63,475 bases of DNA from Candidatus Jacksonbacteria bacterium RIFCSPLOWO2_02_FULL_44_20 (GTDB lineage Bacteria; Patescibacteriota; Patescibacteriia; UBA9629), in contig MHJU01000017.1 of the NCBI GenBank assembly GCA_001818155.1, positions 1 to 63,475 of the forward strand, read 5' to 3'. Below the pieces are notes generated by a model. The model searched no databases and was not told where the DNA came from. It was given only the letters and a program-made list of their open reading frames with translations. The first letter of the stretch is position 1. Each line of letters opens with the position of its first letter. This document shows positions 29,969 to 40,999 of the stretch, in pieces. Both the position numbers and the translations under genes were made by a program.

Positions 29969-31540
29969 CTATTCCTTATTTATAACCACCCGCACCTCCA
30001 GAATTCTATCCACCCGAAACACGCGTGTGTCGCGGCGGGTATGGCAGTAGGCTTCAGTGCCGATGTAAGATTTTCCCATGTATTCCATTTCTCCCACAGT
30101 TTTGGGCGTGATAACGCGGCGGGATTTTTCATCCTGCGCTTTGAGGTAGGTTATTTCAAGGTCGCGATTTTCGGCGATGGCGCGTTCAATGAGCTTCACT
30201 TTGTCTTTAAGCGACAATGCTTTTTCAGATTTGGCGTACTGATATTTGGTCAAGAATTTCACCACGCGCCAATCCATCCAGATATGCCCTTTTTTTATCG
30301 GCTTTTTCAAAACCAACCCTTCAAAATTTGTGCACCGCGAAAGCGCCACATAAAGCTGTCCGTGCGCAAATGTGCCGCGTTCAATGTCAACAATCACTTT
30401 CTCAAATGTTTTCCCTTGACTTTTGTGAATGGTGACTGCCCATGCAAGCATCATCGGATATTGCGTGAACGATCCAACCGTATCCGATTCAATCTCCCTC
30501 GTCGCTTGATTGTATCTAAAATTATAGAGATCCCATGTATACGGACTCACCTTCTCAACATCTCCGTCTTGAAGCTGAACTTCTATGCATTCGTTCTCGC
30601 TTTCCGCATCGTATGAGACATTAACGATAACGCCAATCGTGCCGTTTATCCATCGCCCTGCTGAATCGTTGTTCACCATCATCACCTGACTGCCGACTTT
30701 GAGAGATAAGTTTTCCGATGTCGGAAGGTGACTCTTGTCAAACGCGCCTCGCGCTACGCCTTGAAATGTGTACAACTTCCCTTTTAGTTTCGCAAGTTCT
30801 CGCGCGTTTATTGCTTCAGCGCCCGCGTTTGTCGTTGTGAGATATATGTACTGCTCGTGTTTTTGCGGCTCAAATTCCGGGTCATGGCGCTTGTTTAGCG
30901 TGCCGATCTCCTCAACCCCTGCGGTATTATTGCGAATTGCATTCAGAAGCGAGATAAAACGATCGTCAGTTTGGCGGTAAATTTTTTCAAGCTCAATGAT
31001 TTCAGGCTTGAGTTCAGAAAACACGCGCGCGTCAAAAAAATACGGGCTTTTGTAATGCCCGGCAAAAATTTCGCGCTCGCGCGATGTTACCACAGGGGGA
31101 AGTTGATACAAGTCGCCAAACGAGATCAGCTGTACGCCTCCAAACGGCGCGCGCTTTTTGGTCCCGTGCAGGCGTAAAAATATATCAATGCAATCCATCA
31201 AATCCGCGCGCACCATGGACATTTCATCTATCACAAGAGCTTGTAATTTTTTGTACGTCTCGCGATCTTTTGCGTGTACTGCAACATCTTTAACGCTCGC
31301 AGGGGTAATATCCGGCTTGAAACGAAAAAACGAGTGAATGGTTTGCCCCTTCACATTCACCGCCGCGACTCCTGTTGGCGCAAGCACCACAAGCGACTTT
31401 TTCGCGCGCTCCCGAAACACCTGCAAAAGCGTTGACTTTCCTGTTCCCGCTTTGCCAGTAACAAACACGTGCCTGTCGCCTTGCTCCATAAGCGCGAGAG
31501 CCTGCTTAAAATGCGGGTTGAGGTCTATTTTAAAACGCAT
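29969..31540 (-). CDS. Pif1/RecD-like SF1B helicase with C-terminal WYL-like domain
   Basis: Walker A GKAGTGKST. LVIDEMSMV. GDLYQLPPV. TIHKSQG. C-terminal ITYLKAQDEKSRRVITPKTVGEMEYMGKSYIGTEAYCHTRRDTRVFRVDRI. Start set at internal ATG (M10). Confidence 0.75.
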   Translation of the reverse strand: MRFKIDLNPHFKQALALMEQGDRHVFVTGKAGTGKSTLLQVFRERAKKSLVVLAPTGVAAVNVKGQTIHSFFRFKPDITPASVKDVAVHAKDRETYKKLQALVIDEMSMVRADLMDCIDIFLRLHGTKKRAPFGGVQLISFGDLYQLPPVVTSREREIFAGHYKSPYFFDARVFSELKPEIIELEKIYRQTDDRFISLLNAIRNNTAGVEEIGTLNKRHDPEFEPQKHEQYIYLTTTNAGAEAINARELAKLKGKLYTFQGVARGAFDKSHLPTSENLSLKVGSQVMMVNNDSAGRWINGTIGVIVNVSYDAESENECIEVQLQDGDVEKVSPYTWDLYNFRYNQATREIESDTVGSFTQYPMMLAWAVTIHKSQGKTFEKVIVDIERGTFAHGQLYVALSRCTNFEGLVLKKPIKKGHIWMDWRVVKFLTKYQYAKSEKALSLKDKVKLIERAIAENRDLEITYLKAQDEKSRRVITPKTVGEMEYMGKSYIGTEAYCHTRRDTRVFRVDRILEVRVVINKE

Positions 31541-31585
31541 AGTAAAAATATAAATACCCGAAATCAAAAATAAGTGGAATACTGT

Positions 31586-31828: not shown

Positions 31829-34800
31829 CTAAATAACCGGCTCTATTCCCATATCCTCCAATTTCACCCAAAGCGTCTTTAACCCTTGCTCTTTGTTTTT
31901 ATAAAAAGCACTGCCAGTAATTCGCCAAAACTCCCACCCCGCTCTTCTTAAAACATTTTCCCTCCTTAAGTCAGCCTCCCAATCCGTATGATATTGATCA
32001 CCATCGCACTCTACTGCCAACCGAGTGCTTTCTCCCTGTATAACCAAATCAATACTGTAACCTGCAATCTCAAACTCTGGAATAACTTTATACCCTTTAT
32101 TTAAGATGATATTCCCTACATCAAACGGAAATTCAAACGGTCCGTGTTTTCTTTGTTCAAGAGCTTGTTTTAATGCCTCACGACCCCATTTTATTTCCTC
32201 TTGTTGAGGATTGTAAAACCAATCAAGTATTTTTGCTCGTAAATCATCGGGGTTGGTTAATTCTTTTCGTACAAGAGAATGGAAGAGAATCATTTTGTCT
32301 CTAGCGCGCGACATAGCGACATTTACTCTTTGTTTATATTCTTTTTTATTGATAGTCAATGGCGAAATGCTGTTCTCTGGATTATTTTGATCAGGTGCCT
32401 TAACCATAGAAATGAACATTATATCTCTCTCATCTCCTTGGAACGCATAAGGATTTCCCGCAATAATCTTCCTTTTTTCTATTTCCTCTTCGCTAATTTT
32501 TTGTCTAATTAAATCAGTTATGAATCTACCCTGATCATTTCCTAAAAGCGTTACAACTCCAAAAGTTGTAGGGCGAGTGCCGTCTTTTCCATCAGGTCTC
32601 CCATCATATTGTGAATCATTTATCATCTCAACTAGTTTACTTACAAGCTCTTCTGCTTCTGGTTCATTCACTTCATTATTGATATTCATAAACCCGCTCT
32701 CAACATATATCGCCTCTAACGCAGGAGTTAATTTCCATTTCGATTGAGGATATCTTAACACTTTTAACTGGCCGTCATAGCACAGTTTATTGCTAAAACC
32801 GATAATTTGCTCTACAGATCTAAAATGCTCCAATAACCTTACTCCTTCAGACATCGTTACTTCTGCTACATCAAAGAGGCTTGAGGTTACAGAAAACTGT
32901 TCGCTGTGGGGTATATTTGAGAGATGTTTGGTGATAAGTCCTATAACATCCTCTTGATTGATAAAAGATGTTGGACTTATTTGTTCAGGATCGCCTACAA
33001 CTAAAACTTTTTTCCCTAGATATGCAATATTAACCCCTCGAACATCTACCTGACTCGCCTCATCAAAAATTACAACATCAAACATACCAGCTTTTGGTTC
33101 TGAAAACATATGCAGAACTTTTTCAAGCGGCATAATCCAGATTGGCACCGCATTTTTTGCTTCTTGTTCTTGTAATGCTTCTCGCGCTTTTTTCTCCCAG
33201 TAAGGCCAATATTTACCAGTTCTTTTTCCTATTTTTTTATCGCATTTTGCGTATGCCGCTAAAGCTTTGCGTTGGGATGGCGTAACCTTCTCTTTCTGTT
33301 TTTTCCACGCTGTTGTTGCGATCAGTTCTGCTTCCTGATTTTTTTCTTGATTTTCTGTACGATCCAGTTCTTTTTGAAGTTCTGTTACGCTTTTATCTGA
33401 ATGGATCTCTTCAAGCCAAGACGATATTCGCGCAAGCCCCCAAGCTGTTGCAAGGTTTCCTTGTATTTTATATTTTCCATACTCATCTATTATACTTTCT
33501 TGTATTTCATTGAACAATTTTGGAGCCAAGCGAGATATTTTTTCTTTTAGCTCGCGCAGTTTTTCGGAGTCCCTCTTCTTTTGGTGGAGTTCTGAAAGTT
33601 GTTCATAAAGTTCGCTTAGTTTTTTTTCATTGCGATTATCTATAGCTAAAGATATATCCGCGGCTATCTGATGTTTATTTTTCGCTTTTAGTTCATCCTT
33701 CCAGTTGGTAAAAATATGTTTATACTTGTCTAAATCAAAACTTGCCAATAATGATGTCAAAATAGCAATAAATTTTTCAACCGATTCTTTGTCGGTATAG
33801 GTAAAATTAGAAAAAATTTGATTTTGCTCTATAAATTCTCTTATATCACTGAAGATTTCTTCATAACGCAATATCCTTTCCATATTTTTCAAACGGTCAT
33901 CAAACTTATAAAGCACAAAAGGTTCTTCCAGTTCCTCAAAATCAGAAATATCAGATTGCTTAAATGCCTGATCCCATAAAATTTTGACCTCTATAACTAA
34001 CTGCTCAAGTGTGAGTTTTTTCTTGAGAAGTAAAATAGCTTCTTTTTTTCCAATATCTGAGGAATGAAAAGTAAAATTTTGTAAAATATCTTTTGCGTTT
34101 TTTGACAAGCCAATTTTTTGCAGGAAACCTAAAGACGATCGGTTCCCTGTCTTCTTTTCAATCTCATTAACCGCTTCTAATAAACTTTTAACTGGAAGAT
34201 TAGTATTGTACAAAATATTATGACCTAATAAATTAGCTTGCAGTTGGCGCATTTGAGCGCCTTTTTCTTTTAACCTTTCAAAAATTCCATTCTGCCATTT
34301 TTCTTTTTCCTCGCTATTGTTCAAAATCAACGCAAATAATCTGTCTTCCCATTTTTTATCCATTGCATTTAAAGCGGCATGCGCCGATCCCGCTCTTTGC
34401 AGTATCTGTCTGATCCTTTCTTCTTCAAAAATAGGTGCGCTGTTGAATTTCTTTTGCGCAAGATATTTTTCATAGCGTTTATTGAGAACAAGAGCTTCTT
34501 CATAGTGCTCAAAAAATTTCTTTACATCTTCTATTTTAGGGAGCCGTCCAATTTCCGGCATCCATTGTTCAAAATAACCGCGTTCTTCTTTGGTAAGTCG
34601 CGCAAGCAGATTCACTGTGTTTGTAATATCTTCTTCAGTAAAATCTAATTTTGCATCTTTTGTAATTTTGTCTTTTAACCACATTTTACCGCTTGCGCTT
34701 CCATCCGCCAATTCTTTAGCTCCTTGTGTTGGGGTAAGACACCTGTCTTCAATGAGAAATTTTTCTTCAATATCAAGGAGAACCCACTTTTTTATTCTTG

Positions 34801-36373
34801 ATAACAAGGCCGCCTTTTCTTTGCGTATTTCCTTCAACTGCGCTCTTATTTCTTCAATTTTTTTATCCGTAAATTTCGTAGTATCGTCCAAATTAGCGTT
34901 AATAGTTTTGACTGACATCTGTAGATCATCATGCCGTGAATTACTCTCAACCTGCGATACGATTAAATCTTTAATTTTCTCGGGGATTTTATCTTTTAGC
35001 ACTTCCAGTGCTTTCCCTGTTTGAGATGTTACCAATACGGATTTGCCTTGAGCTAAAAAACGCGAAAGAAGGTTTGCAATGGTATGGCTTTTACCAGTTC
35101 CGGGAGGGCCTTGTACTACAACGCCGTATCTTGCCTCAATTTTATTTACAATTTTTTTTTGGTCATCGTTCCATGTCAATGGAAAATATAGCTCCCCATC
35201 CGCAATAGAAACACTCTCTTCTCCCGCATGGTTTTCTGCGAGCGCAATTTCACCGCCGGCAAGTTCTGTGATAAAAGGGGGCAACTCATTAGCTTTCTCA
35301 ATATCTTGCTGAATTTTCTTTGCGTATTTTGCCCAATCAATATTGGATTTTTTACGCAATAGAATTGTGGGAAAGTGCCAATAGGTAGGCACTTCGCTCA
35401 TTTCAGGTTCAGGAATTTCTTCGGAAAAATTTTCTATTCCATTTGGTGAAAGGTATCCGACAATTTCACTACCTTTTAATTTAAGCGCCTGCTCACTCCA
35501 AACATCGTACCCATCAGAATTTAAAATTTTTGATTGTTCATGAATATCAAGGATATTTGGTATATCCAAACCATCTAAAAAAGAGGTTTCAAAGGCCGTT
35601 TTTAGCGAGTTATCTTTTCTGACCTCAATTTTTTTCTCTTCAGGAAAAAATTCTAAAGTAATAGGGGTAACAAAAAATGGGTGAAAAATCTTTTCGTTTT
35701 CTGTCTTCCATGTAAGTAAGTCATGAGTCCATAACAAATCAAAATTTTCCTGTTCTGTTTTTAGAAATGTTCTTAATCCGTATAAATCATCATAAACTTG
35801 ATTTGCCCTAAAAGTTGGCTCATTTTTTTGTCTCCATTCTTCCCATGATCCAGCTATGTAATTGTCGTACAACTCTTTAAGTTCTGGGAAATCTGTAAAG
35901 AAAAATTCTATATCCCTTTCATGTATTTTGCTCCAGTTTCCTTTTTCATCCTTTGTAATCCAACTATGTAGCATCTTTGGAATATCTTGCTTTTCCGCTT
36001 TTTGAAAATTTTCAAACGCCTTAACCCTCATGTTATCATCCGAAAATTGAATTTTTCTGAATATGGATTCTTTATATTTTGGTTGAGAAAATTCATGACT
36101 ATCAAGCACAACCCATTCCATTAGTTCTAGGGGAAGATTAGGCAAAGGTTCTAATTCATGCTTTTTTACAGAGAGAAAGAGATAATCATCTTGGTTTGAT
36201 TCATGAAAATTTTTAACGAAAAGATTGTCGCTTTGCGGGAAACTCCTAATTTGGCGCATCCATTCCTGTTCTGCCAAATTTCGAAAATCCCTTCTAGTAT
36301 CAATGTTAAGAGAGAATAACTCTTCAAGGTATTTGAAGATATTTATTGCGTTAGTTTTGATTTTTTCAAGCAT
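31829..36373 (-). CDS. 1514-aa SF1 (Upf1/DNA2-like) helicase fused to a C-terminal DUF559/Vsr-like endonuclease; candidate defence protein
   Basis: VVQGPPGTGKSH, VIFDEASQV, VGDPEQISP and VNVAMSRARDKM. C-terminus IDLVIQGESTRLAVECDGDQYH...RAGWEFWRI. The gene is visibly AT-rich relative to its neighbours. Confidence 0.8.
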   Translation of the reverse strand: MLEKIKTNAINIFKYLEELFSLNIDTRRDFRNLAEQEWMRQIRSFPQSDNLFVKNFHESNQDDYLFLSVKKHELEPLPNLPLELMEWVVLDSHEFSQPKYKESIFRKIQFSDDNMRVKAFENFQKAEKQDIPKMLHSWITKDEKGNWSKIHERDIEFFFTDFPELKELYDNYIAGSWEEWRQKNEPTFRANQVYDDLYGLRTFLKTEQENFDLLWTHDLLTWKTENEKIFHPFFVTPITLEFFPEEKKIEVRKDNSLKTAFETSFLDGLDIPNILDIHEQSKILNSDGYDVWSEQALKLKGSEIVGYLSPNGIENFSEEIPEPEMSEVPTYWHFPTILLRKKSNIDWAKYAKKIQQDIEKANELPPFITELAGGEIALAENHAGEESVSIADGELYFPLTWNDDQKKIVNKIEARYGVVVQGPPGTGKSHTIANLLSRFLAQGKSVLVTSQTGKALEVLKDKIPEKIKDLIVSQVESNSRHDDLQMSVKTINANLDDTTKFTDKKIEEIRAQLKEIRKEKAALLSRIKKWVLLDIEEKFLIEDRCLTPTQGAKELADGSASGKMWLKDKITKDAKLDFTEEDITNTVNLLARLTKEERGYFEQWMPEIGRLPKIEDVKKFFEHYEEALVLNKRYEKYLAQKKFNSAPIFEEERIRQILQRAGSAHAALNAMDKKWEDRLFALILNNSEEKEKWQNGIFERLKEKGAQMRQLQANLLGHNILYNTNLPVKSLLEAVNEIEKKTGNRSSLGFLQKIGLSKNAKDILQNFTFHSSDIGKKEAILLLKKKLTLEQLVIEVKILWDQAFKQSDISDFEELEEPFVLYKFDDRLKNMERILRYEEIFSDIREFIEQNQIFSNFTYTDKESVEKFIAILTSLLASFDLDKYKHIFTNWKDELKAKNKHQIAADISLAIDNRNEKKLSELYEQLSELHQKKRDSEKLRELKEKISRLAPKLFNEIQESIIDEYGKYKIQGNLATAWGLARISSWLEEIHSDKSVTELQKELDRTENQEKNQEAELIATTAWKKQKEKVTPSQRKALAAYAKCDKKIGKRTGKYWPYWEKKAREALQEQEAKNAVPIWIMPLEKVLHMFSEPKAGMFDVVIFDEASQVDVRGVNIAYLGKKVLVVGDPEQISPTSFINQEDVIGLITKHLSNIPHSEQFSVTSSLFDVAEVTMSEGVRLLEHFRSVEQIIGFSNKLCYDGQLKVLRYPQSKWKLTPALEAIYVESGFMNINNEVNEPEAEELVSKLVEMINDSQYDGRPDGKDGTRPTTFGVVTLLGNDQGRFITDLIRQKISEEEIEKRKIIAGNPYAFQGDERDIMFISMVKAPDQNNPENSISPLTINKKEYKQRVNVAMSRARDKMILFHSLVRKELTNPDDLRAKILDWFYNPQQEEIKWGREALKQALEQRKHGPFEFPFDVGNIILNKGYKVIPEFEIAGYSIDLVIQGESTRLAVECDGDQYHTDWEADLRRENVLRRAGWEFWRITGSAFYKNKEQGLKTLWVKLEDMGIEPVI

Positions 36374-36473: not shown

Positions 36474-36761
36474 TTAGGCAAGCGGAAATCCGCCTGAAAT
36501 TTTATCAAGCATTTTTATAGTAAGGTCTACTGAAGGATTTTTTGTATTCCGAAAAAAAACTCGTTTTCCAAACTCTTTTACGATCGGCGTTAGAAACTCG
36601 TCGCCCCATGAAGGGGTAAAGGTGGTAACGCCTGTAAAATCTATTTCTACAGATTCTTGAGGCGCTAAAGCTCGAAGAGTTGGCAGATACGCCAAGTACG
36701 CTTCCCTGCCGTCCTGGCGCGATACAAGCAACGTGCCAAATTTTTTTATTTCTATGCGCAT
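36474..36761 (-). CDS. STAS-like (DUF4325-type) small protein
   Basis: 95 aa. VEIDFTGVTTFTPSWGDEFL is the pattern of STAS-like anti-anti-sigma-type domains. Confidence 0.55.
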   Translation of the reverse strand: MRIEIKKFGTLLVSRQDGREAYLAYLPTLRALAPQESVEIDFTGVTTFTPSWGDEFLTPIVKEFGKRVFFRNTKNPSVDLTIKMLDKISGGFPLA

Positions 36762-36765
36762 ATGT

Positions 36766-37173
36766 TTAAAATGAAATCATCGCAATACATCCGCGCAAGT
36801 ATGTGCGCGCGCTTGAGATACGCATAACCGGATCATTTTTTTCTAGCTTAAGAACCGCGCCGCCTGTTTGAAAAAAAAGTTTCAACGGATACTGAACCAC
36901 TGTCTCTCGCACAAATTTTAATCCGTTTCCCCGCGCTTCCGGCGCGCGGCCGGAAATAACTTCTGTAAACGCTATACGGAGCGCTTCTTTATCATCGCGT
37001 ATACCATTCATAACATTTCGCAATGTTTGCAAAATTCCACGGCCGCGATCCGCAAGCGCAATAATTCTTTGATCCAAGCGATAGCCAAAAAAAATACCAA
37101 GAATATCAGGCCAATTTCCAAGATTGTGATCAAAAGAGTTATTGCCTATTTCTCCTGCAACGGCAATGATCAA
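36766..37173 (-). CDS. GHKL (histidine-kinase-like) ATPase-fold protein, possibly 5'-truncated
   Basis: N-box-like EIGNNSFDH at residues 8-16. DRGRGI. GNGLKF. TTG start only. The reading frame is open upstream into the 3' end of the ABC ATPase gene, without any ATG. Confidence 0.5.
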   Translation of the reverse strand: MIIAVAGEIGNNSFDHNLGNWPDILGIFFGYRLDQRIIALADRGRGILQTLRNVMNGIRDDKEALRIAFTEVISGRAPEARGNGLKFVRETVVQYPLKLFFQTGGAVLKLEKNDPVMRISSARTYLRGCIAMISF

Positions 37174-37219: not shown

Positions 37220-38143
37220 TTACCCCTTCGCCAACTTCAAAAACACCTCTTCCAAATCCGGTTTGTTAATGTCTAAATCATAAATGCCGAAATTTTCGCG
37301 GGAGATTGCCTGCATGGTTTCTCCCAAGTCGTCCGCGCTGGTTTTGATGTGCAAGTGCCCTGCGCTTTCAATTTCAAACTGCCATCCGCGCGTGTTTATA
37401 AATTCAACAAACGCGCTCTCTTTCCCGCTCGCAAAGGCTACTTCTACATAATAATCCCGCGCCGCGCGTTTCAATTCTTCCGGAGCGCCTTCTGCCACAA
37501 TCTTCCCTTTTTGCAAAAAAATCACGCGATCGCACATCTCCTCAACCTCCGACATATTGTGAGACGTGTATAAAAAAGAAACCCCGCGCTCACGGTGAAT
37601 ACGCCGCAAAATATCGCGTACCTTAAAAGCGATGTCCGGGTCCAAGCTTGCGGTCGGTTCGTCCAGAAGCAAAAATTCCGGATCGTTCAGAAATGTTTTT
37701 GCAAGAATCACGCGCGTTTTCTGGCCGCTTGAAAGTTTGTAAAACAAGGTATGCAAAAGATCAGAAATTTCAAGTTCATCCGCAACAGCGGCGATTTTTT
37801 TCCCGAGTCTACGGACGTTATACAATTTCCCGAAGAAATATAAGTTCTCGCGCACTGTGAGACGAGACATAAATTGAATATATGTTGAGGAATAATTGAT
37901 GCGCGAAAGAATTTCCCCGCGGTTCTTTACAAGGTCTTTCCCAAACACACTGATCTCCCCTTCTGTCGGAGAAATCAATCCTAAAATCATCTCAATCGTG
38001 GTTGATTTTCCCGCGCCGTTTGGGCCCAAAAGCCCGAGTATCTCGCCTTTTTTAATATCAAAACTGATGTCGGAAACAGCTGTTTTATCCTTAAATCGTT
38101 TGGTAAGGTTGCGAACAGTGAGAATCATAAAAGAATATGCCAC
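37220..38143 (-). CDS. ABC transporter ATP-binding protein (ABC-2 / DrrA-NatA-like subfamily)
   Basis: Walker A GPNGAGKSTT. Signature LSSGQKTRV. Walker B LLLDEPT. Confidence 0.85.
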   Translation of the reverse strand: MAYSFMILTVRNLTKRFKDKTAVSDISFDIKKGEILGLLGPNGAGKSTTIEMILGLISPTEGEISVFGKDLVKNRGEILSRINYSSTYIQFMSRLTVRENLYFFGKLYNVRRLGKKIAAVADELEISDLLHTLFYKLSSGQKTRVILAKTFLNDPEFLLLDEPTASLDPDIAFKVRDILRRIHRERGVSFLYTSHNMSEVEEMCDRVIFLQKGKIVAEGAPEELKRAARDYYVEVAFASGKESAFVEFINTRGWQFEIESAGHLHIKTSADDLGETMQAISRENFGIYDLDINKPDLEEVFLKLAKG

Positions 38144-38164
38144 TTCAATATATCATAACTCCAA

Positions 38165-39607
38165 TTACTCCACTATTCCGCCTGTCTCATAGTGAGAAAG
38201 TTCCGCCTCGCCGACCGCAACAACAACTGCGTCGCCGCGCGCGCGGATGCGAGTCCATGTTTCGCCGGAGCGCAGATGATATTTCTTGCCGCGCGAGATT
38301 AAAAATATCTTCTTGCCCGCCTCAATAGTAAGGTACACCTCATCAGGATACCCAATCTCTAACCCTTCCGGATACGAGTCCAAGTTCTCGCGGCTTGCAA
38401 ACTCAATTCTGCGTGGCGAGGGAAATCGCAGACCCAAAATGGTTTCGTTTGGAATCCACCGTTTTCGCCCATGCTCAATCATATACACGGTCGGGTCGTT
38501 TTCCTGCTTTACAAGCGTGCCGTCTGTAAAAGGCGCGACCAATTTTTGACCGAGCACTGCCGTGGCTGATGGCTCTTCCGGAAGCGGCTCTGGTTCTTTT
38601 TTGTCCTCGTTATCCTCTGTGTCTCGTTCCTCGCTTGTATCTTCCGGAATCGCGGGGCTGTTAGTGAAAGTTGGCGGAATAATCATTCCTGCCGGTGGCG
38701 GAGGCGGGGGTGGCGGCGCAGGCGGAGTGTAAACAATTTTTCGCACAGGATACGAGGCGCCGGCAAGCGCGATTGCCGTATAGGAGGTTGTATTAACCTT
38801 AAAGGCATTTTCAACGTTCTTCTCAGATTCAAACCAACCATCGGGTGTTTGAAGCGACTGCAAAAAGGCAATCGGAGTGTTGCCTACCTTAGACCACGCG
38901 GCGCTTTCGGGGTCTTCGCCAAGTTTATACAGCATACTAACTACCCATGCGGTGGTATCCGCGTTAGAATTCGTTCCATATGGACTTAGAGGATCAAACG
39001 GAAATCCTCCGTCAGCGTTTTGGGAAAGTTTAATATAGGAAACTGCGTTTTGAATTGCTGTGTCTCCCAATGAAACCCCGGCTTCTAGCATCGCCATCAC
39101 GGCCATTGCGGTGTCGTCAACGTCAGATGATCCGATCATAAACCCGAATCCGCCGTCGCTATTTTGATTGTTAAGAATAAATGTTTTGCTTTGTAGAATA
39201 GCCGAATCGTCTGCTGAAACGCCTGCGGCGATGAGCGCAAGGATGCCGAAAATATCGTCATTTAATGTTTGAGGATCCCCGAGTTGATTGTTTGCTGAAA
39301 ACGAAAGTAATTTTGCGACAAGGTCTTCTTTTGCAAATGAACGCGGGTCCCGCCCGAGCGCCGCAATCCCCAAAATTGGCCCGGCGCATGCGATTGCGAA
39401 ATCGCACTTTGCCTCTTTGAGATGATCCTCGGCGATGTCTTCTTCACCAAGAACGTAAAGCGCCTGCGTACTCCAATAATTTTGCGGGGCATTTCTAAGA
39501 TAAAGGCTGGCGAGTTGATTTTTTGACGGCGCCGCGCGAAGCGGTGTTACAAGTCCGGTTGCGATTGCGATAATCGCGAAAAAGGCGAGATGTGATTGTC
39601 GTCTCAT
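38165..39607 (-). CDS. Secreted alpha/alpha-toroid (prenyltransferase/terpene-cyclase-like repeat) protein with poly-Pro linker and two C-terminal surface repeats
   Basis: Signal peptide ending LRAAPS. Repeats QNSDGGFGF, QNADGGFPF and QTPDGWF. Linker PPAPPPPPPPPAG. C-terminal modules resemble those of ORF 10140..12287. Confidence 0.6.
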   Translation of the reverse strand: MRRQSHLAFFAIIAIATGLVTPLRAAPSKNQLASLYLRNAPQNYWSTQALYVLGEEDIAEDHLKEAKCDFAIACAGPILGIAALGRDPRSFAKEDLVAKLLSFSANNQLGDPQTLNDDIFGILALIAAGVSADDSAILQSKTFILNNQNSDGGFGFMIGSSDVDDTAMAVMAMLEAGVSLGDTAIQNAVSYIKLSQNADGGFPFDPLSPYGTNSNADTTAWVVSMLYKLGEDPESAAWSKVGNTPIAFLQSLQTPDGWFESEKNVENAFKVNTTSYTAIALAGASYPVRKIVYTPPAPPPPPPPPAGMIIPPTFTNSPAIPEDTSEERDTEDNEDKKEPEPLPEEPSATAVLGQKLVAPFTDGTLVKQENDPTVYMIEHGRKRWIPNETILGLRFPSPRRIEFASRENLDSYPEGLEIGYPDEVYLTIEAGKKIFLISRGKKYHLRSGETWTRIRARGDAVVVAVGEAELSHYETGGIVE

Positions 39608-39639
39608 AAAAATAAAAACTCTCTTGCGAACAAAGAGAG
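39608..39639 (-). terminator. Intrinsic terminator / RBS-sequestering hairpin of the riboswitch expression platform
   Basis: Minus-strand RNA reads CUCUCUU-UGUUCGC-AAGAGAG followed by UUUUUAUUUUU and then the AUG at 39607. Confidence 0.6.
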
Positions 39640-39835
39640 ATTTGCGATTTCTAATCGCCGATTATTAAAAATTAAAAATTGGAAATTAAAAATTTCTTAA
39701 ATGTCTCTCTGCTCGAAGAGAAGTATTACAAGCGAGTCCATAGACCTGGCTTATTCCAAAACTAGTCGGAAATCACAGTTGCGGCACAGCCGCGGATTTA
39801 AACCGCGTTCCTTGGACTGCTCTATTTGTCAATTG
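39608..39835 (-). promoter_or_regulatory. Cobalamin (B12) riboswitch, aptamer about 39731-39822 plus expression platform
   Basis: Minus-strand RNA GAGCAGUCCAAGGAACGCGGUUUAAAUCCGCGGCUGUGCCGCAACUGUGAUU matches the conserved GGGAA..GGUG.AAAUCC..GC.G.CCCGC.ACUGU core. It is followed by the B12-box-like AAGCCAGGUCUAUGG. Confidence 0.75.
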
Positions 39836-39964
39836 AAAACAGAGTAGTCTAAAAAGAGGATAGCGTCAAGCCTGAATATGCCACAATCTTCACAAGGAAT
39901 AAAGATGTTGTTATACTGTACTCTTAAACTCTTAAAAATTATAAATAATAAACGTACTTACTCT

Positions 39965-40999
39965 ATGGAAATACTATCACTTTTCAAGCTCGGTGTAGAA
40001 AAGGGCGCGTCTGACATACATATTATTGTGGGGAAACCTCCTGTAATACGAATTGACGGCGTGCTCAATGAAATAGAAGGCGCGGCCTTCACGAGGGGAA
40101 GCGCAAAAGAGAGTATTTATTCTCTTCTCACATCGTTCCAGCAAAAACTTTTTGAAACCGACCGCGAGCTGGATTTCTCATACGAAATTAAAAATGTCTC
40201 GCGCTTTCGCGTGAATATCCATTTTGAAAAAGAGTCGCCGGGGCTTGTCGCACGCATTGTATCTACTACAGTTCCCATATTGGACGAACTCCTTATGCCG
40301 CAGATTGTAAAAAAATTTCTCAAGATGCGCGAAGGGCTCATTTTGGTGACAGGCCCGACAGGATGCGGGAAATCAACAACTCTTGCGGCGATGATTAACG
40401 AAATCAACGAAACGCGCAACTGTCATATTATAACATTAGAGGATCCGATTGAATTTTTATTCACCGCTAAAAAAAGCATCATACGCCAGAGGCAACTCGG
40501 AAACGACATGAAATCCTTCAAAGAAGGGCTAAAACATGTGCTTCGTCAGGATCCGAATGTCATTATGGTCGGCGAAATGCGCGACCTTGAAAGCATTGCG
40601 GCGACCATTACGCTTGCGGAAACCGGGCATCTTGTGCTTGCGACGCTTCACACATTCTCCGCGGCGCAAACCGTTGACCGCATTATTGATTCCTTTCCGC
40701 CGTATCAACAACCGCAAGTCCGTCTTCAGGTTTCAATAACCTTGCGCGCAATTATCTCACAGCAACTTTTGCGGGGAGCGCGCGGGGGCAGAGTTTCATC
40801 GCGCGAAATTCTCATAAATAACAACGCTGTCTCAAATCTTATCAGAGAAAACAAAATTGCGCAGATAAAAACAGTAATACAGACATCGGCGGAAGAAGGC
40901 ATGATTACTATGGACAACGACTTAAAACGCCTGGTTGCTGAAGGACTCGTTGATATAGAAGACGCAAAGGCGCATATGTTGAATCCGGACCAATTATAA
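39965..40999 (+). CDS. pilT: Type IV pilus retraction ATPase PilT
   Basis: GASDIHI. Walker A GPTGCGKSTT. VIMVGEMRD. ATLHT. Start set at internal ATG (M30), giving a typical 344 aa. Confidence 0.85.
   Translation: MEILSLFKLGVEKGASDIHIIVGKPPVIRIDGVLNEIEGAAFTRGSAKESIYSLLTSFQQKLFETDRELDFSYEIKNVSRFRVNIHFEKESPGLVARIVSTTVPILDELLMPQIVKKFLKMREGLILVTGPTGCGKSTTLAAMINEINETRNCHIITLEDPIEFLFTAKKSIIRQRQLGNDMKSFKEGLKHVLRQDPNVIMVGEMRDLESIAATITLAETGHLVLATLHTFSAAQTVDRIIDSFPPYQQPQVRLQVSITLRAIISQQLLRGARGGRVSSREILINNNAVSNLIRENKIAQIKTVIQTSAEEGMITMDNDLKRLVAEGLVDIEDAKAHMLNPDQL

What the first reader, a model, noticed from the sequence alone, without database searches (positions are those of the whole stretch)
39608..39835. 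Cobalamin riboswitch in the 357-bp gap between pilT and a secreted-protein gene
The reverse complement of 39771-39822 reads GAGCAGUCCAAGGAACGCGGUUUAAAUCCGCGGCUGUGCCGCAACUGUGAUU. This reproduces the conserved cobalamin-aptamer core (GGGAA..GGUG.AAAUCC..GC.G.CCCGC.ACUGU).

The reverse complement of 39738-39752 gives a B12-box-like AAGCCAGGUCUAUGG. AGUCCA (39813-39818) can pair with UGGACU (39735-39740) as a closing helix.

Downstream there are three hairpins. The last (39619-39639) carries an 11-nt U-rich tract that runs directly into the AUG at 39607. AGAGAGA from the first hairpin (reverse complement of 39704-39710) can instead pair with the terminator 5' arm CUCUCUU, which is a classic antiterminator arrangement.

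No ORF explains this region.
Basis: partly seen in the sequence, partly recalled or inferred. Interest (0 to 1): 0.7.

Follow-up and report, generated by a model that had tools for sequence, protein, structure and literature searches.

The report
Vitamin B12 riboswitch, confirmed
The 357-bp gap holds a genuine vitamin B12 (cobalamin) riboswitch of a known short class, which most likely shuts off a secreted, probably B12-scavenging, protein gene in a tiny-genome (CPR/Patescibacteria-type) bacterium; it is a correct but ordinary finding.

Summary
Rfam's RF01482 (AdoCbl) model hits 39838..39690 on the minus strand at 52.9 bits, just above its gathering score of 50. It is the only riboswitch hit in the window.

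A covariance model I built finds the same element upstream of homologues of the downstream gene in nearly all of 85 related loci, almost all Patescibacteria. All helices covary strongly.

Its loop CGAGCA pairs with L5 UGCCG as the L5-L13 kissing loop, seen in eight Watson-Crick-compatible variants.

In the window and four orthologues, L13 plus the P13 3' arm can instead pair with the terminator's 5' arm and loop (12 bp here). The hairpin and U-tract end 11 nt before the AUG. The likely mechanism is a B12-dependent OFF switch.

The regulated gene encodes a secreted alpha/alpha-toroid protein. Most homologues also carry the transcobalamin-type DUF4430 domain; the window protein does not.

Verdict: interpretation supported; a new member of a known kind. 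Ligand selectivity and the read-through state remain untested.

The parts
39864..39869 (-). Candidate -35 box (TTGACG) of the riboswitch transcript
   Evidence: CTTGAC is conserved at this position in orthologues L001, L081 and L083. Its role as a promoter is inferred.
39841..39846 (-). Candidate -10 box (TACTCT; TAnnnT in the orthologues), 17 nt after the -35. It puts the transcription start near 39835.
   Evidence: Alignment. It is weak against the E. coli consensus and was not listed by the scan. Inferred.
39690..39838 (-). Extent of the Rfam RF01482 (AdoCbl riboswitch) match
   Evidence: 52.9 bits (gathering score 50), E 7e-7, model positions 1-149.
39730..39822 (-). Aptamer. P1 is GAGC/GCUU with C39734 bulged. 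P3 is AGUCCA/UGGACU. It also holds J3/4 AAGGAA, P4, P5, P6 and the B12 box.
   Evidence: Rfam alignment. Own model R1 scores 106.8 bits. Covariation.
39791..39807 (-). P4/L4 (CGCGG-UUUAAAU-CCGCG), the T-loop-type hairpin
   Evidence: Four of its five pairs show compensatory changes; 93% of cells are paired.
39780..39788 (-). P5/L5 (UG-UGCCG-CA). L5 is 39786..39782, the kissing-loop partner.
   Evidence: The outer pair switches U-A (47 sequences) to A-U (30 sequences). L5 covaries with L13.
39746..39778 (-). P6: a CUG/CAG base plus a simple hairpin, with no P7-P11 extension
   Evidence: The middle pair of the base occurs as GC 36, UA 26, AU 7, CG 7. All 5 pairs of the hairpin covary.
39738..39752 (-). 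B12 box / J6/3 (AAGCCAGGUCUAUGG)
   Evidence: Aligns to the RF01482 consensus AAGUCAGGUCUUUug.
39704..39721 (-). P13/L13 hairpin (UCUCUU-CGAGCA-GAGAGA). L13 is 39715..39710. Proposed kissing pairs: U39786-A39710, G39785-C39711, C39784-G39712, C39783-G39714 and G39782-C39715, with A39713 bulged.
   Evidence: The loop CGAGCA recurs across the related loci while the stem covaries. Kissing-loop covariation.
39644..39658 (-). Second hairpin (GCGAUU-AGA-AAUCGC) in the AU-rich spacer
   Evidence: Present in the window but not conserved in the orthologues. Treated as spacer.
39619..39639 (-). Terminator-like hairpin (CUCUCUU-UGUUCGC-AAGAGAG). Its 3' arm is also the only purine-rich, SD-like stretch before the AUG.
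   Evidence: An equivalent hairpin plus U-tract sits directly before the ATG in L001, L081, L082 and L083. Most of the 78 hits also have a terminator-like hairpin downstream of P13.
39608..39618 (-). U-tract UUUUUAUUUUU running into the start codon
39627..39638 (-). 3' strand of the proposed antiterminator (UCUCUUUGUUCG: terminator 5' arm plus loop). It pairs with CGAGCAGAGAGA at 39715..39704.
   Evidence: This is the minimum-energy fold of the nascent RNA up to the terminator loop in the window, L001, L081 and L083, and more weakly in L082. Duplex energy is -16.8 kcal/mol against a mean of -7.8 with foreign terminators.
38165..39607 (-). Regulated gene: a 480-aa secreted protein. It has a signal peptide, an alpha/alpha toroid (about residues 30-290), a Pro-rich linker and a beta-rich C-terminal domain.
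   Evidence: Pfam Prenyltrans and SQHop_cyclase_C. AlphaFold2 model with mean pLDDT 81.8. Foldseek toroid matches. Homologues carry DUF4430 or ECF S-component fusions.
37220..38143 (-). DrrA-like ABC transporter ATPase, 21 nt downstream, probably co-transcribed
   Evidence: The same neighbour is present in L001 (93% identity) and L081 (85%).

Best explanation
This is the 5' leader of the mRNA for a secreted alpha/alpha-toroid protein. It contains a short-form (Cbl-II architecture, RF01482-like) cobalamin riboswitch.

**Transcription start.** Transcription most likely begins near 39835 from a conserved TTGAC-17-TAnnnT promoter.

**Aptamer.** The aptamer (39822..39730) is the four-way junction P3-P4-P5-P6 with the B12 box. 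It has no P2 arm and no P6 extension.

**With corrinoid bound.** Loop L5 (UGCCG) kisses loop L13 (CG-A-GCA) of the weak P13 hairpin (39721..39704) and locks that hairpin. The downstream strand CUCUCUU is then free to form the hairpin 39639..39619. That hairpin abuts a U-tract and buries the only SD-like purine run 11 nt before the AUG. The result is termination and/or blocked initiation, so the gene is OFF.

**Without ligand.** L13 is free. L13 and the P13 3' arm pair over 12 bp with the terminator's 5' arm and loop. This antiterminator should allow read-through and expression of the toroid protein, and probably of the adjacent ABC ATPase.

**Shown here.** Family membership by score, the helices, the kissing loop by covariation, conservation of the two alternative pairings, and the gene association.

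**Inferred.** Ligand binding, the direction of regulation (by analogy with all characterised cobalamin riboswitches on uptake genes), the promoter, and B12 binding by the protein.
For: - **Rfam.** RF01482 scores 52.9 bits against a gathering score of 50 and is the only riboswitch hit in the window. It is still the best clan member on the core alone.
- **Own model.** R1 finds one site in the window (106.8 bits) and 77 sites in 85 homologue loci. Nearly all lie on the gene's strand just upstream of the gene.
- **Covariation.** 86% of cells are paired, 27 of 31 pairs show double changes, and the covariation score is 0.653 against at most 0.173 for slid partners. RNAalifold independently recovers P4, P6 and P13.
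- **Kissing loop.** Eight L5/L13 combinations all keep Watson-Crick complementarity. Of 20 variant L5 sequences, 14 find a 5/5 partner in their own P13, against 4.5% in foreign P13.
- **Expression platform.** The terminator hairpin is listed. P13, the terminator and the 2:3 alternative pairing are conserved in the orthologues. The window's own antiterminator duplex is -16.8 kcal/mol against -7.8 for foreign terminators.
- **Gene.** Homologues are toroid+DUF4430 proteins or ECF-S fusions. That architecture was predicted to bind B12 (PMC1796856). A kissing loop shared by all cobalamin classes, and a P13/P14-terminator layout, are described for B. subtilis yvrC (PMC7367189).
Against: - The Rfam score is only 2.9 bits above threshold, and Rfam's alignment of the P13 part is out of register (8 non-canonical pairs).
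- No ligand-binding or expression data exist for this organism.
- In the window, the P13 5' arm (UUCUCUU) can also pair with the terminator 3' arm (AAGAGAG). This extends the antiterminator into a 19-bp helix (MFE -35.8 kcal/mol) that still ends at the U-tract and still hides the SD-like run. Thermodynamics alone therefore does not show an ON state.
- In L001 and L082 the terminator is more stable than the antiterminator even without ligand.
- Only about 20 of 70 family members show strong direct L13/terminator complementarity.
- The window protein lacks the DUF4430 domain that makes the transcobalamin analogy strong.
Confidence: 0.85

Rival explanations
1. The riboswitch is the same, but control is purely translational. 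The hairpin 39639..39619 acts only as an SD-sequestering helix, and the U-rich run is just an AU-rich leader in a low-GC genome. No transcription termination is involved.
For: The only purine-rich run before the AUG (AAGAGAG; GAGG or AGGGG in the orthologues) is the 3' arm of that hairpin. From memory, Cbl-II riboswitches such as env8 classically hide the ribosome-binding site. The leader is very AU-rich.
Against: A stem followed directly by five or more U is kept in all five orthologues despite sequence change. Most of the 78 family members also have such a hairpin. The SD-like run lies 11 nt from the AUG, which is long for an SD.
Confidence: 0.25
2. The element is a riboswitch-terminated small RNA that acts in trans. 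By my recollection, the founding RF01482 examples in Enterococcus and Listeria eut loci sequester a regulator in this way. On this reading it is not a cis regulator of the toroid gene.
For: The best Rfam family is RF01482. The terminated product would be a discrete RNA of about 220 nt.
Against: The start codon follows the U-tract directly. The element sits immediately upstream of homologues of the same gene in nearly all of 85 loci across many Patescibacteria lineages. No ANTAR-type hairpins or eut genes are nearby.
Confidence: 0.04
3. It is a decayed or chance match with no function.
For: The Rfam score is barely above threshold.
Against: All core positions align. There is conservation with compensatory changes in 77 related sites, kissing-loop covariation, and a conserved platform.
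Confidence: 0.02

Closest known systems
Rfam RF01482 'AdoCbl' riboswitch (Cbl-IIb-type; by my recollection founded on the Enterococcus/Listeria eut-locus riboswitches)
   Same: It is the best-scoring family, both for the full element and for the core alone. The layout is the same short one: no P2 arm, P6 capped by a simple hairpin, and a downstream P13 whose loop carries CGAGNN. The model consensus pairs L5 CcCg with L13 CGAGG. The window pairs L5 GCCG with L13 CGAGC, a compensatory difference read.
   Different: The outer helix is much shorter than the model's 12 bp, and P13 is 6 bp against about 13 bp in the model. The element is cis-acting in front of an ORF in Patescibacteria. It is followed by a separate terminator rather than being part of a trans-acting RNA. 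Ligand selectivity is untested.
Cbl-IIa riboswitches (env8 HyCbl, PDB 4FRN/4FRG; Rfam RF01689)
   Same: The four-way junction core is the same, there is no P6 extension, and the L5-L13 kissing loop couples the aptamer to the platform (PMC7367189).
   Different: RF01689 scores lower than RF01482 here. By my recollection, env8-type platforms usually hide the RBS inside P13. Here P13 lies about 95 nt upstream of the AUG and a second hairpin does the terminating and occluding.
Bacillus subtilis yvrC cobalamin riboswitch (P13 + P14 terminator; PMC7367189)
   Same: A P13/L13 hairpin that kisses L5 is followed by a terminator hairpin and a poly-U run. The proposed apo state re-pairs elements of P13 with elements of the terminator. 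The paper likewise notes that the anti-termination structure is unclear.
   Different: yvrC has a Cbl-I-like P2 arm and stacked P13/P14 stems. Here there is no P2 arm, and a spacer of about 60 nt separates P13 from the terminator.
Bacterial transcobalamin-like proteins (alpha/alpha toroid + SLBB/DUF4430; Burroughs et al. 2007, PMC1796856)
   Same: The downstream protein is secreted and has the toroid. It shares 40-50% identity with toroid+DUF4430 proteins. Transcobalamin is among the significant fold matches (7qbe_A, E 5e-5).
   Different: The window protein has no DUF4430/SLBB domain. Its C-terminal beta-rich domain of about 125 aa is confined to close relatives. Terpene cyclases and prenyltransferase beta subunits are closer fold matches than transcobalamin.

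Membership tests
Cobalamin riboswitch clan CL00101 / RF01482 | Covariance-model score at or above the curated gathering score | tested here: met
   52.9 bits against 50, E 7e-7, full-length match. The margin is small.
Cobalamin riboswitch clan CL00101 / RF01482 | Four-way junction P3-P4-P5-P6 with a conserved core (J3/4 GGAA, L4 GGUnAAAUCC, GCCGCnACnGU, B12 box AAGyCnG) | tested here: met
   Alignment to the model. All four helices covary in 77 relatives.
Cobalamin riboswitch clan CL00101 / RF01482 | L5-L13 kissing loop linking the aptamer to the expression platform | tested here: met
   L5 UGCCG pairs with L13 CG(A)GCA. Eight compensatory types were seen. 14 of 20 variant L5 match their own P13, against 4.5% for foreign P13. 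This is comparative evidence, not structural.
Cobalamin riboswitch clan CL00101 / RF01482 | Binds a cobalamin derivative | not testable with these tools
   Needs in-line probing, ITC or a structure.
Cobalamin riboswitch clan CL00101 / RF01482 | Sits in the 5' UTR of a B12-related gene and carries a ligand-responsive platform | tested here: inconclusive
   Position and a terminator/antiterminator pair are present and conserved. The gene family is B12-linked only by domain architecture (PMC1796856). Regulation itself is untested, and the 1:4 pairing clouds the ON state.
Cbl-II architecture (as opposed to Cbl-I) | No P2 loop-stem-loop between P1 and P3; P6 capped by a simple stem-loop instead of P7-P11 (PMC7367189) | tested here: met
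   P1 and P3 are separated only by the bulged C39734. P6 is CUG/CAG plus one hairpin.
Cbl-IIb (AdoCbl-selective) versus Cbl-IIa (MeCbl/HyCbl-selective) | J1/3 form and P6 cap, which are taken to set ligand selectivity (PMC7367189) | tested here: inconclusive
   A short hairpin cap on P6 and the best match to RF01482 point to IIb. The same paper stresses that selectivity cannot be read reliably from the peripheral elements.
Transcobalamin-like B12 binders (downstream protein) | Alpha/alpha toroid domain | tested here: met
   Pfam PF00432 and PF13243. The model has block pLDDT mostly above 90 over residues 30-290. Foldseek gives toroid matches, including transcobalamin at rank 40.
Transcobalamin-like B12 binders (downstream protein) | SLBB/DUF4430 beta-grasp domain that sandwiches B12 with the toroid | tested here: not met
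   No DUF4430 hit in the window protein. Most homologues do have PF14478. The protein is therefore not filed as a transcobalamin-family member, only as a relative of such proteins.

The most novel reading that the evidence does not exclude
The riboswitch marks a Patescibacteria-wide B12-scavenging regulon built on secreted toroid proteins, and it is under-detected by Rfam: only 10 of 20 loci passed gathering, while my model found the element in nearly all. Within that regulon, the Jacksonbacteria-like lineage of the window has replaced the transcobalamin-type DUF4430 domain with an unrelated beta-rich domain. It has also re-wired the platform so that the terminator's loop imitates L5 and competes for L13, a kissing-loop-initiated strand exchange. 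If the toroid-only protein still binds corrinoids, it would be a new kind of bacterial B12 binder.
Probability: 0.3. Interest if true: 0.5.

Novelty: new member of a known kind. Interest (0 to 1): 0.3.

Why it matters
For the window, this settles the annotation of the gap. It also gives the hypothetical 'terpene cyclase/prenyltransferase-like' gene a functional context in corrinoid acquisition.

More broadly, CPR/Patescibacteria are thought to depend on other organisms for cofactors. A B12 riboswitch in front of nearly every homologue of this secreted toroid protein points to a widespread, regulated B12-scavenging system in these bacteria. My literature searches found no paper linking cobalamin riboswitches and Patescibacteria.

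The covarying L5/L13 pairs and the clear P13/terminator exchange make this a compact model for how kissing-loop riboswitches drive termination. That question is described as unresolved for B. subtilis yvrC (PMC7367189).

Tried and rejected
- **An alternative P13.** I first considered the hairpin UAAUC-GGC-GAUUA (about 39664-39652, loop GGC) as the L13 partner of L5 GCC. I rejected it because this stretch is absent or unconserved in the orthologues. The CGAGCA hairpin is invariant and covaries with L5.
- **Coding explanation.** Only antisense ORFs of 28-48 aa lie in the gap.
- **Other Rfam families.** PyrR, microRNA and sRNA models score 11-23 bits, far below their thresholds.
- **Regulation of pilT.** The riboswitch is on the opposite strand and reads away from pilT.
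- **Protein searches.** A PDB sequence search with the family profile gave squalene-hopene cyclases as top hits and transcobalamin only at E 0.06-0.7. Foldseek does not place transcobalamin first. The 'transcobalamin-like' label therefore rests on the domain architecture of the homologues, not on the window protein itself.
- **B12-dependent enzymes nearby.** None was found among ten large ORFs of the window.
- **Literature.** Searches for cobalamin riboswitches in Patescibacteria/CPR returned nothing relevant.
- **Family-wide antiterminator test.** It is only modestly significant overall (mean -8.8 against -7.5 kcal/mol, Mann-Whitney p 0.002) and is bimodal. The direct L13/terminator design therefore holds for a subset that includes the window, not for all members.

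Full report
**Observation**

I read the minus strand of 39400-40100.

- the 52-nt core (39822..39771);
- AAGCCAGGUCUAUGG (39752..39738);
- AGUCCA (39818..39813) and UGGACU (39740..39735);
- AGAGAGA (39710..39704);
- the hairpin 39639..39619, followed by UUUUUAUUUUU and the AUG at 39607.

The gap between the 480-aa ORF (39607..38165, minus strand) and the divergent pilT-like gene (most likely ATG at 39965, plus strand) is 357 bp. Only short antisense ORFs lie in it.

**Family test**

A gathering-threshold scan of the whole window against Rfam 15 gives four hits. Three are tRNAs. The fourth is RF01482 (AdoCbl riboswitch) at 39838..39690 on the minus strand: 52.9 bits against a gathering score of 50, E 7e-7, full model.

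A permissive scan of the gap shows nothing else near threshold. Two other families of the cobalamin clan match the same place with lower scores. With only the aptamer core as input, RF01482 is still the best clan member at 40.5 bits.

The margin over threshold is small. Rfam's alignment of the 3' hairpin is also out of register. I therefore looked for independent, comparative evidence.

**Relatives**

The downstream protein has a signal peptide and Pfam prenyltransferase / squalene-hopene-cyclase alpha/alpha-toroid matches.

- Its closest named homologues are from Candidatus Jacksonbacteria (62% identity).
- More distant ones (40-50% identity over the toroid) are mostly Patescibacteria proteins that add a DUF4430 domain.
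- Further ones are actinobacterial fusions to ECF-transporter S components.

A profile-guided scan of species-representative genomes returned 80 loci, nearly all Patescibacteria. Exact look-ups of three close homologues gave five more loci, with the same pilT / cNMP-GAF synteny as the window.

Rfam at gathering threshold finds a cobalamin-clan riboswitch upstream of the gene in 10 of the first 20 loci.

**Own covariance model**

I built a model from 18 compact examples, with a hand-drawn structure that includes P13.

- It finds exactly one site in the window (106.8 bits).
- It finds 77 sites in the 85 loci, nearly all on the gene's strand just upstream of the gene.

**Structure**

On the 78-sequence alignment:

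- 86% of cells form standard pairs, against 60% after shuffling and 38-47% with slid partners.
- 27 of 31 pairs show changes on both sides.
- The covariation score is 0.653, against at most 0.173 for slid partners.

This alignment was fitted to the model, which favours the structure. RNAalifold on the plain MAFFT alignment independently recovers P4, the P6 base, the P6 hairpin and P13, all with compensatory changes.

In the window the helices are:

- P1: 39822-39819 with 39733-39730, C39734 bulged.
- P3: 39818-39813 with 39740-39735.
- P4: 39807-39791.
- P5: 39788-39780.
- P6: 39778-39746, closed by a simple hairpin.

There is no P2 arm and no P7-P11 extension. This is the Cbl-II architecture as defined in PMC7367189.

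**Kissing loop**

L5 (UGCCG) is complementary to L13 (CG-A-GCA) with one bulged A. Where L5 differs, L13 changes to match:

| L5 | L13 |
|---|---|
| UGCCG (window) | CGAGCA |
| UACCG | CGAGUA |
| UCCCG | CGAGGA |
| AUCCG | CGAGAU |
| ACCCG | CGAGGU |
| GGCCG | CGAGCC |
| UCGCG | CGCGA |
| CCCCG | CGAGGG |

These are read. Of 20 sequences with a variant L5, 14 have a 5/5 partner in their own P13, against 4.5% when paired with a foreign P13. The tool count on the model alignment gives 97% of cells paired and 0 of 500 shuffles reaching the covariation score.

The Rfam consensus itself (L5 CcCg, L13 CGAGG) differs from the window (GCCG, CGAGC) in a compensatory way.

**Expression platform**

The window, L001, L081, L082 and L083 share four things:

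- a TTGAC-17-TAnnnT motif upstream, probably the promoter, which puts the transcription start near 39835 (inferred);
- the aptamer;
- P13;
- a hairpin followed by a U-run that ends 10-11 nt before the ATG.

P13 alone is weak, at 0 to -4.6 kcal/mol. That fits a hairpin that needs the ligand-dependent kissing loop to persist.

When the nascent RNA is folded only up to the terminator loop, the minimum-energy structure in the window, L001, L081 and L083 (and more weakly in L082) pairs L13 plus the P13 3' arm with the terminator's 5' arm plus loop. In the window this is 12 bp: CGAGCAGAGAGA (39715..39704) with UCUCUUUGUUCG (39638..39627).

The window's duplex is -16.8 kcal/mol, against a mean of -7.8 with terminators from other loci. 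About 20 of 70 family members show similarly specific complementarity.

This gives a four-strand switch:

- **Ligand bound:** the kissing loop holds 1:2 (P13), 3:4 (the terminator/occluder) forms, and the gene is OFF.
- **No ligand:** 2:3 forms.

The 3' arm of the terminator is also the only SD-like run (AAGAGAG; GAGG or AGGGG in the orthologues). Control may therefore be both transcriptional and translational.

**Caveat**

In the window, strand 1 (UUCUCUU) can pair with strand 4 (AAGAGAG). This extends 2:3 into a 19-bp helix, the global MFE at -35.8 kcal/mol, which still ends at the U-tract. Whether the apo state really reads through cannot be decided from thermodynamics.

The same uncertainty is stated for the B. 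subtilis yvrC P13/P14 riboswitch (PMC7367189). The direction of regulation is inferred by analogy.

**The regulated genes**

The AlphaFold2 model has a mean pLDDT of 81.8, with 10-residue block means mostly above 90 across the toroid. It shows a toroid (about residues 30-290), a disordered Pro-rich linker and a beta-rich C-terminal domain.

Foldseek's best matches are terpene cyclases and prenyltransferase beta subunits. Transcobalamin appears at rank 40 with E 5e-5.

The toroid+SLBB (DUF4430) architecture seen in most homologues was predicted to bind B12 by Burroughs et al. (PMC1796856). The window protein lacks DUF4430. Its C-terminal domain is confined to close relatives. I treat B12 scavenging as a reasonable inference, not a result.

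A DrrA-like ABC ATPase follows 21 nt downstream, and also follows in L001 and L081. L081 and L082 have an extra MFS gene in between.

**Verdict**

Both the observation and the interpretation are correct. The element is a new member of a known riboswitch class, detectable by Rfam, and so of modest interest in itself.

The wider pattern is a cobalamin riboswitch in front of almost every Patescibacteria homologue of this secreted toroid protein, half of them missed at Rfam's thresholds. That is the more interesting lead. I found no paper on it.

Noticed in passing
window 31829-36373 (-): A 1514-aa SF1 helicase (AAA_11/AAA_12) with a C-terminal REase_MTES_1575 nuclease domain. The best PADLOC matches are PDC-S37 (1e-56) and Hhe (8e-34). 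It is a candidate single-gene anti-phage defence protein lying shortly downstream of the riboswitch operon.
   Followed up: partly
window 29969-31567 (-): A PIF1/RecD-like helicase fused to a C-terminal WYL domain, with PADLOC PDC-S68 and RecD-like matches. Together with the neighbouring helicase-nuclease it suggests a small defence island.
   Followed up: partly
window 36474-37173 (-): A pair of small genes between the ABC ATPase and the big helicase. One is 135 aa with no Pfam or PADLOC match. The other is a 95-aa DUF4325 (STAS-like) protein. Function unknown.
   Followed up: partly
L081 4642-5823; L082 1730-2908, compared with window 38143-38165: The orthologous loci L081 and L082 carry an MFS_1 transporter gene between the toroid gene and the ABC ATPase. 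The window and L001 lack it, so the toroid gene abuts the ATPase. No ABC permease gene is seen next to the ATPase in the window.
   Followed up: partly
L001-L020 (Rfam) compared with L001-L085 (own model): Rfam gathering thresholds detect the riboswitch in only 10 of 20 homologue loci, split among RF01482, RF00174 and RF01689. A model trained on these sequences finds it in nearly all loci. Patescibacteria cobalamin riboswitches therefore sit at or below Rfam's thresholds.
   Followed up: yes
L080 2513-2656 and 3804-3963: Two riboswitch copies in one locus, both with L5 AUCCG and L13 CGAGAU. This may reflect tandem riboswitch-controlled toroid genes.
   Followed up: no
window 38165-38539 (C-terminal ~125 aa of the 480-aa protein): A beta-rich C-terminal domain, apparently two similar beta-strand/helix units by DSSP, with no Pfam match. 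It is found only in the Jacksonbacteria-like orthologues (L001, L081-L085), where it takes the place of the DUF4430 domain of other homologues.
   Followed up: partly
window 39889-39917 (+) and 39841-39869 (-): Back-to-back divergent promoter candidates for the pilT-like gene (TTCACA-17-TATACT, 10 of 12 matches, TG-extended) and for the riboswitch transcript. They lie within about 80 bp of each other.
   Followed up: no
L001 (record title): The closest relative of the window locus (82% protein identity, same synteny) is labelled 'uncultured Gammaproteobacteria bacterium' in its record. Its gene content and relatives look like Patescibacteria, so this is probably a binning or taxonomy mislabel.
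   Followed up: no
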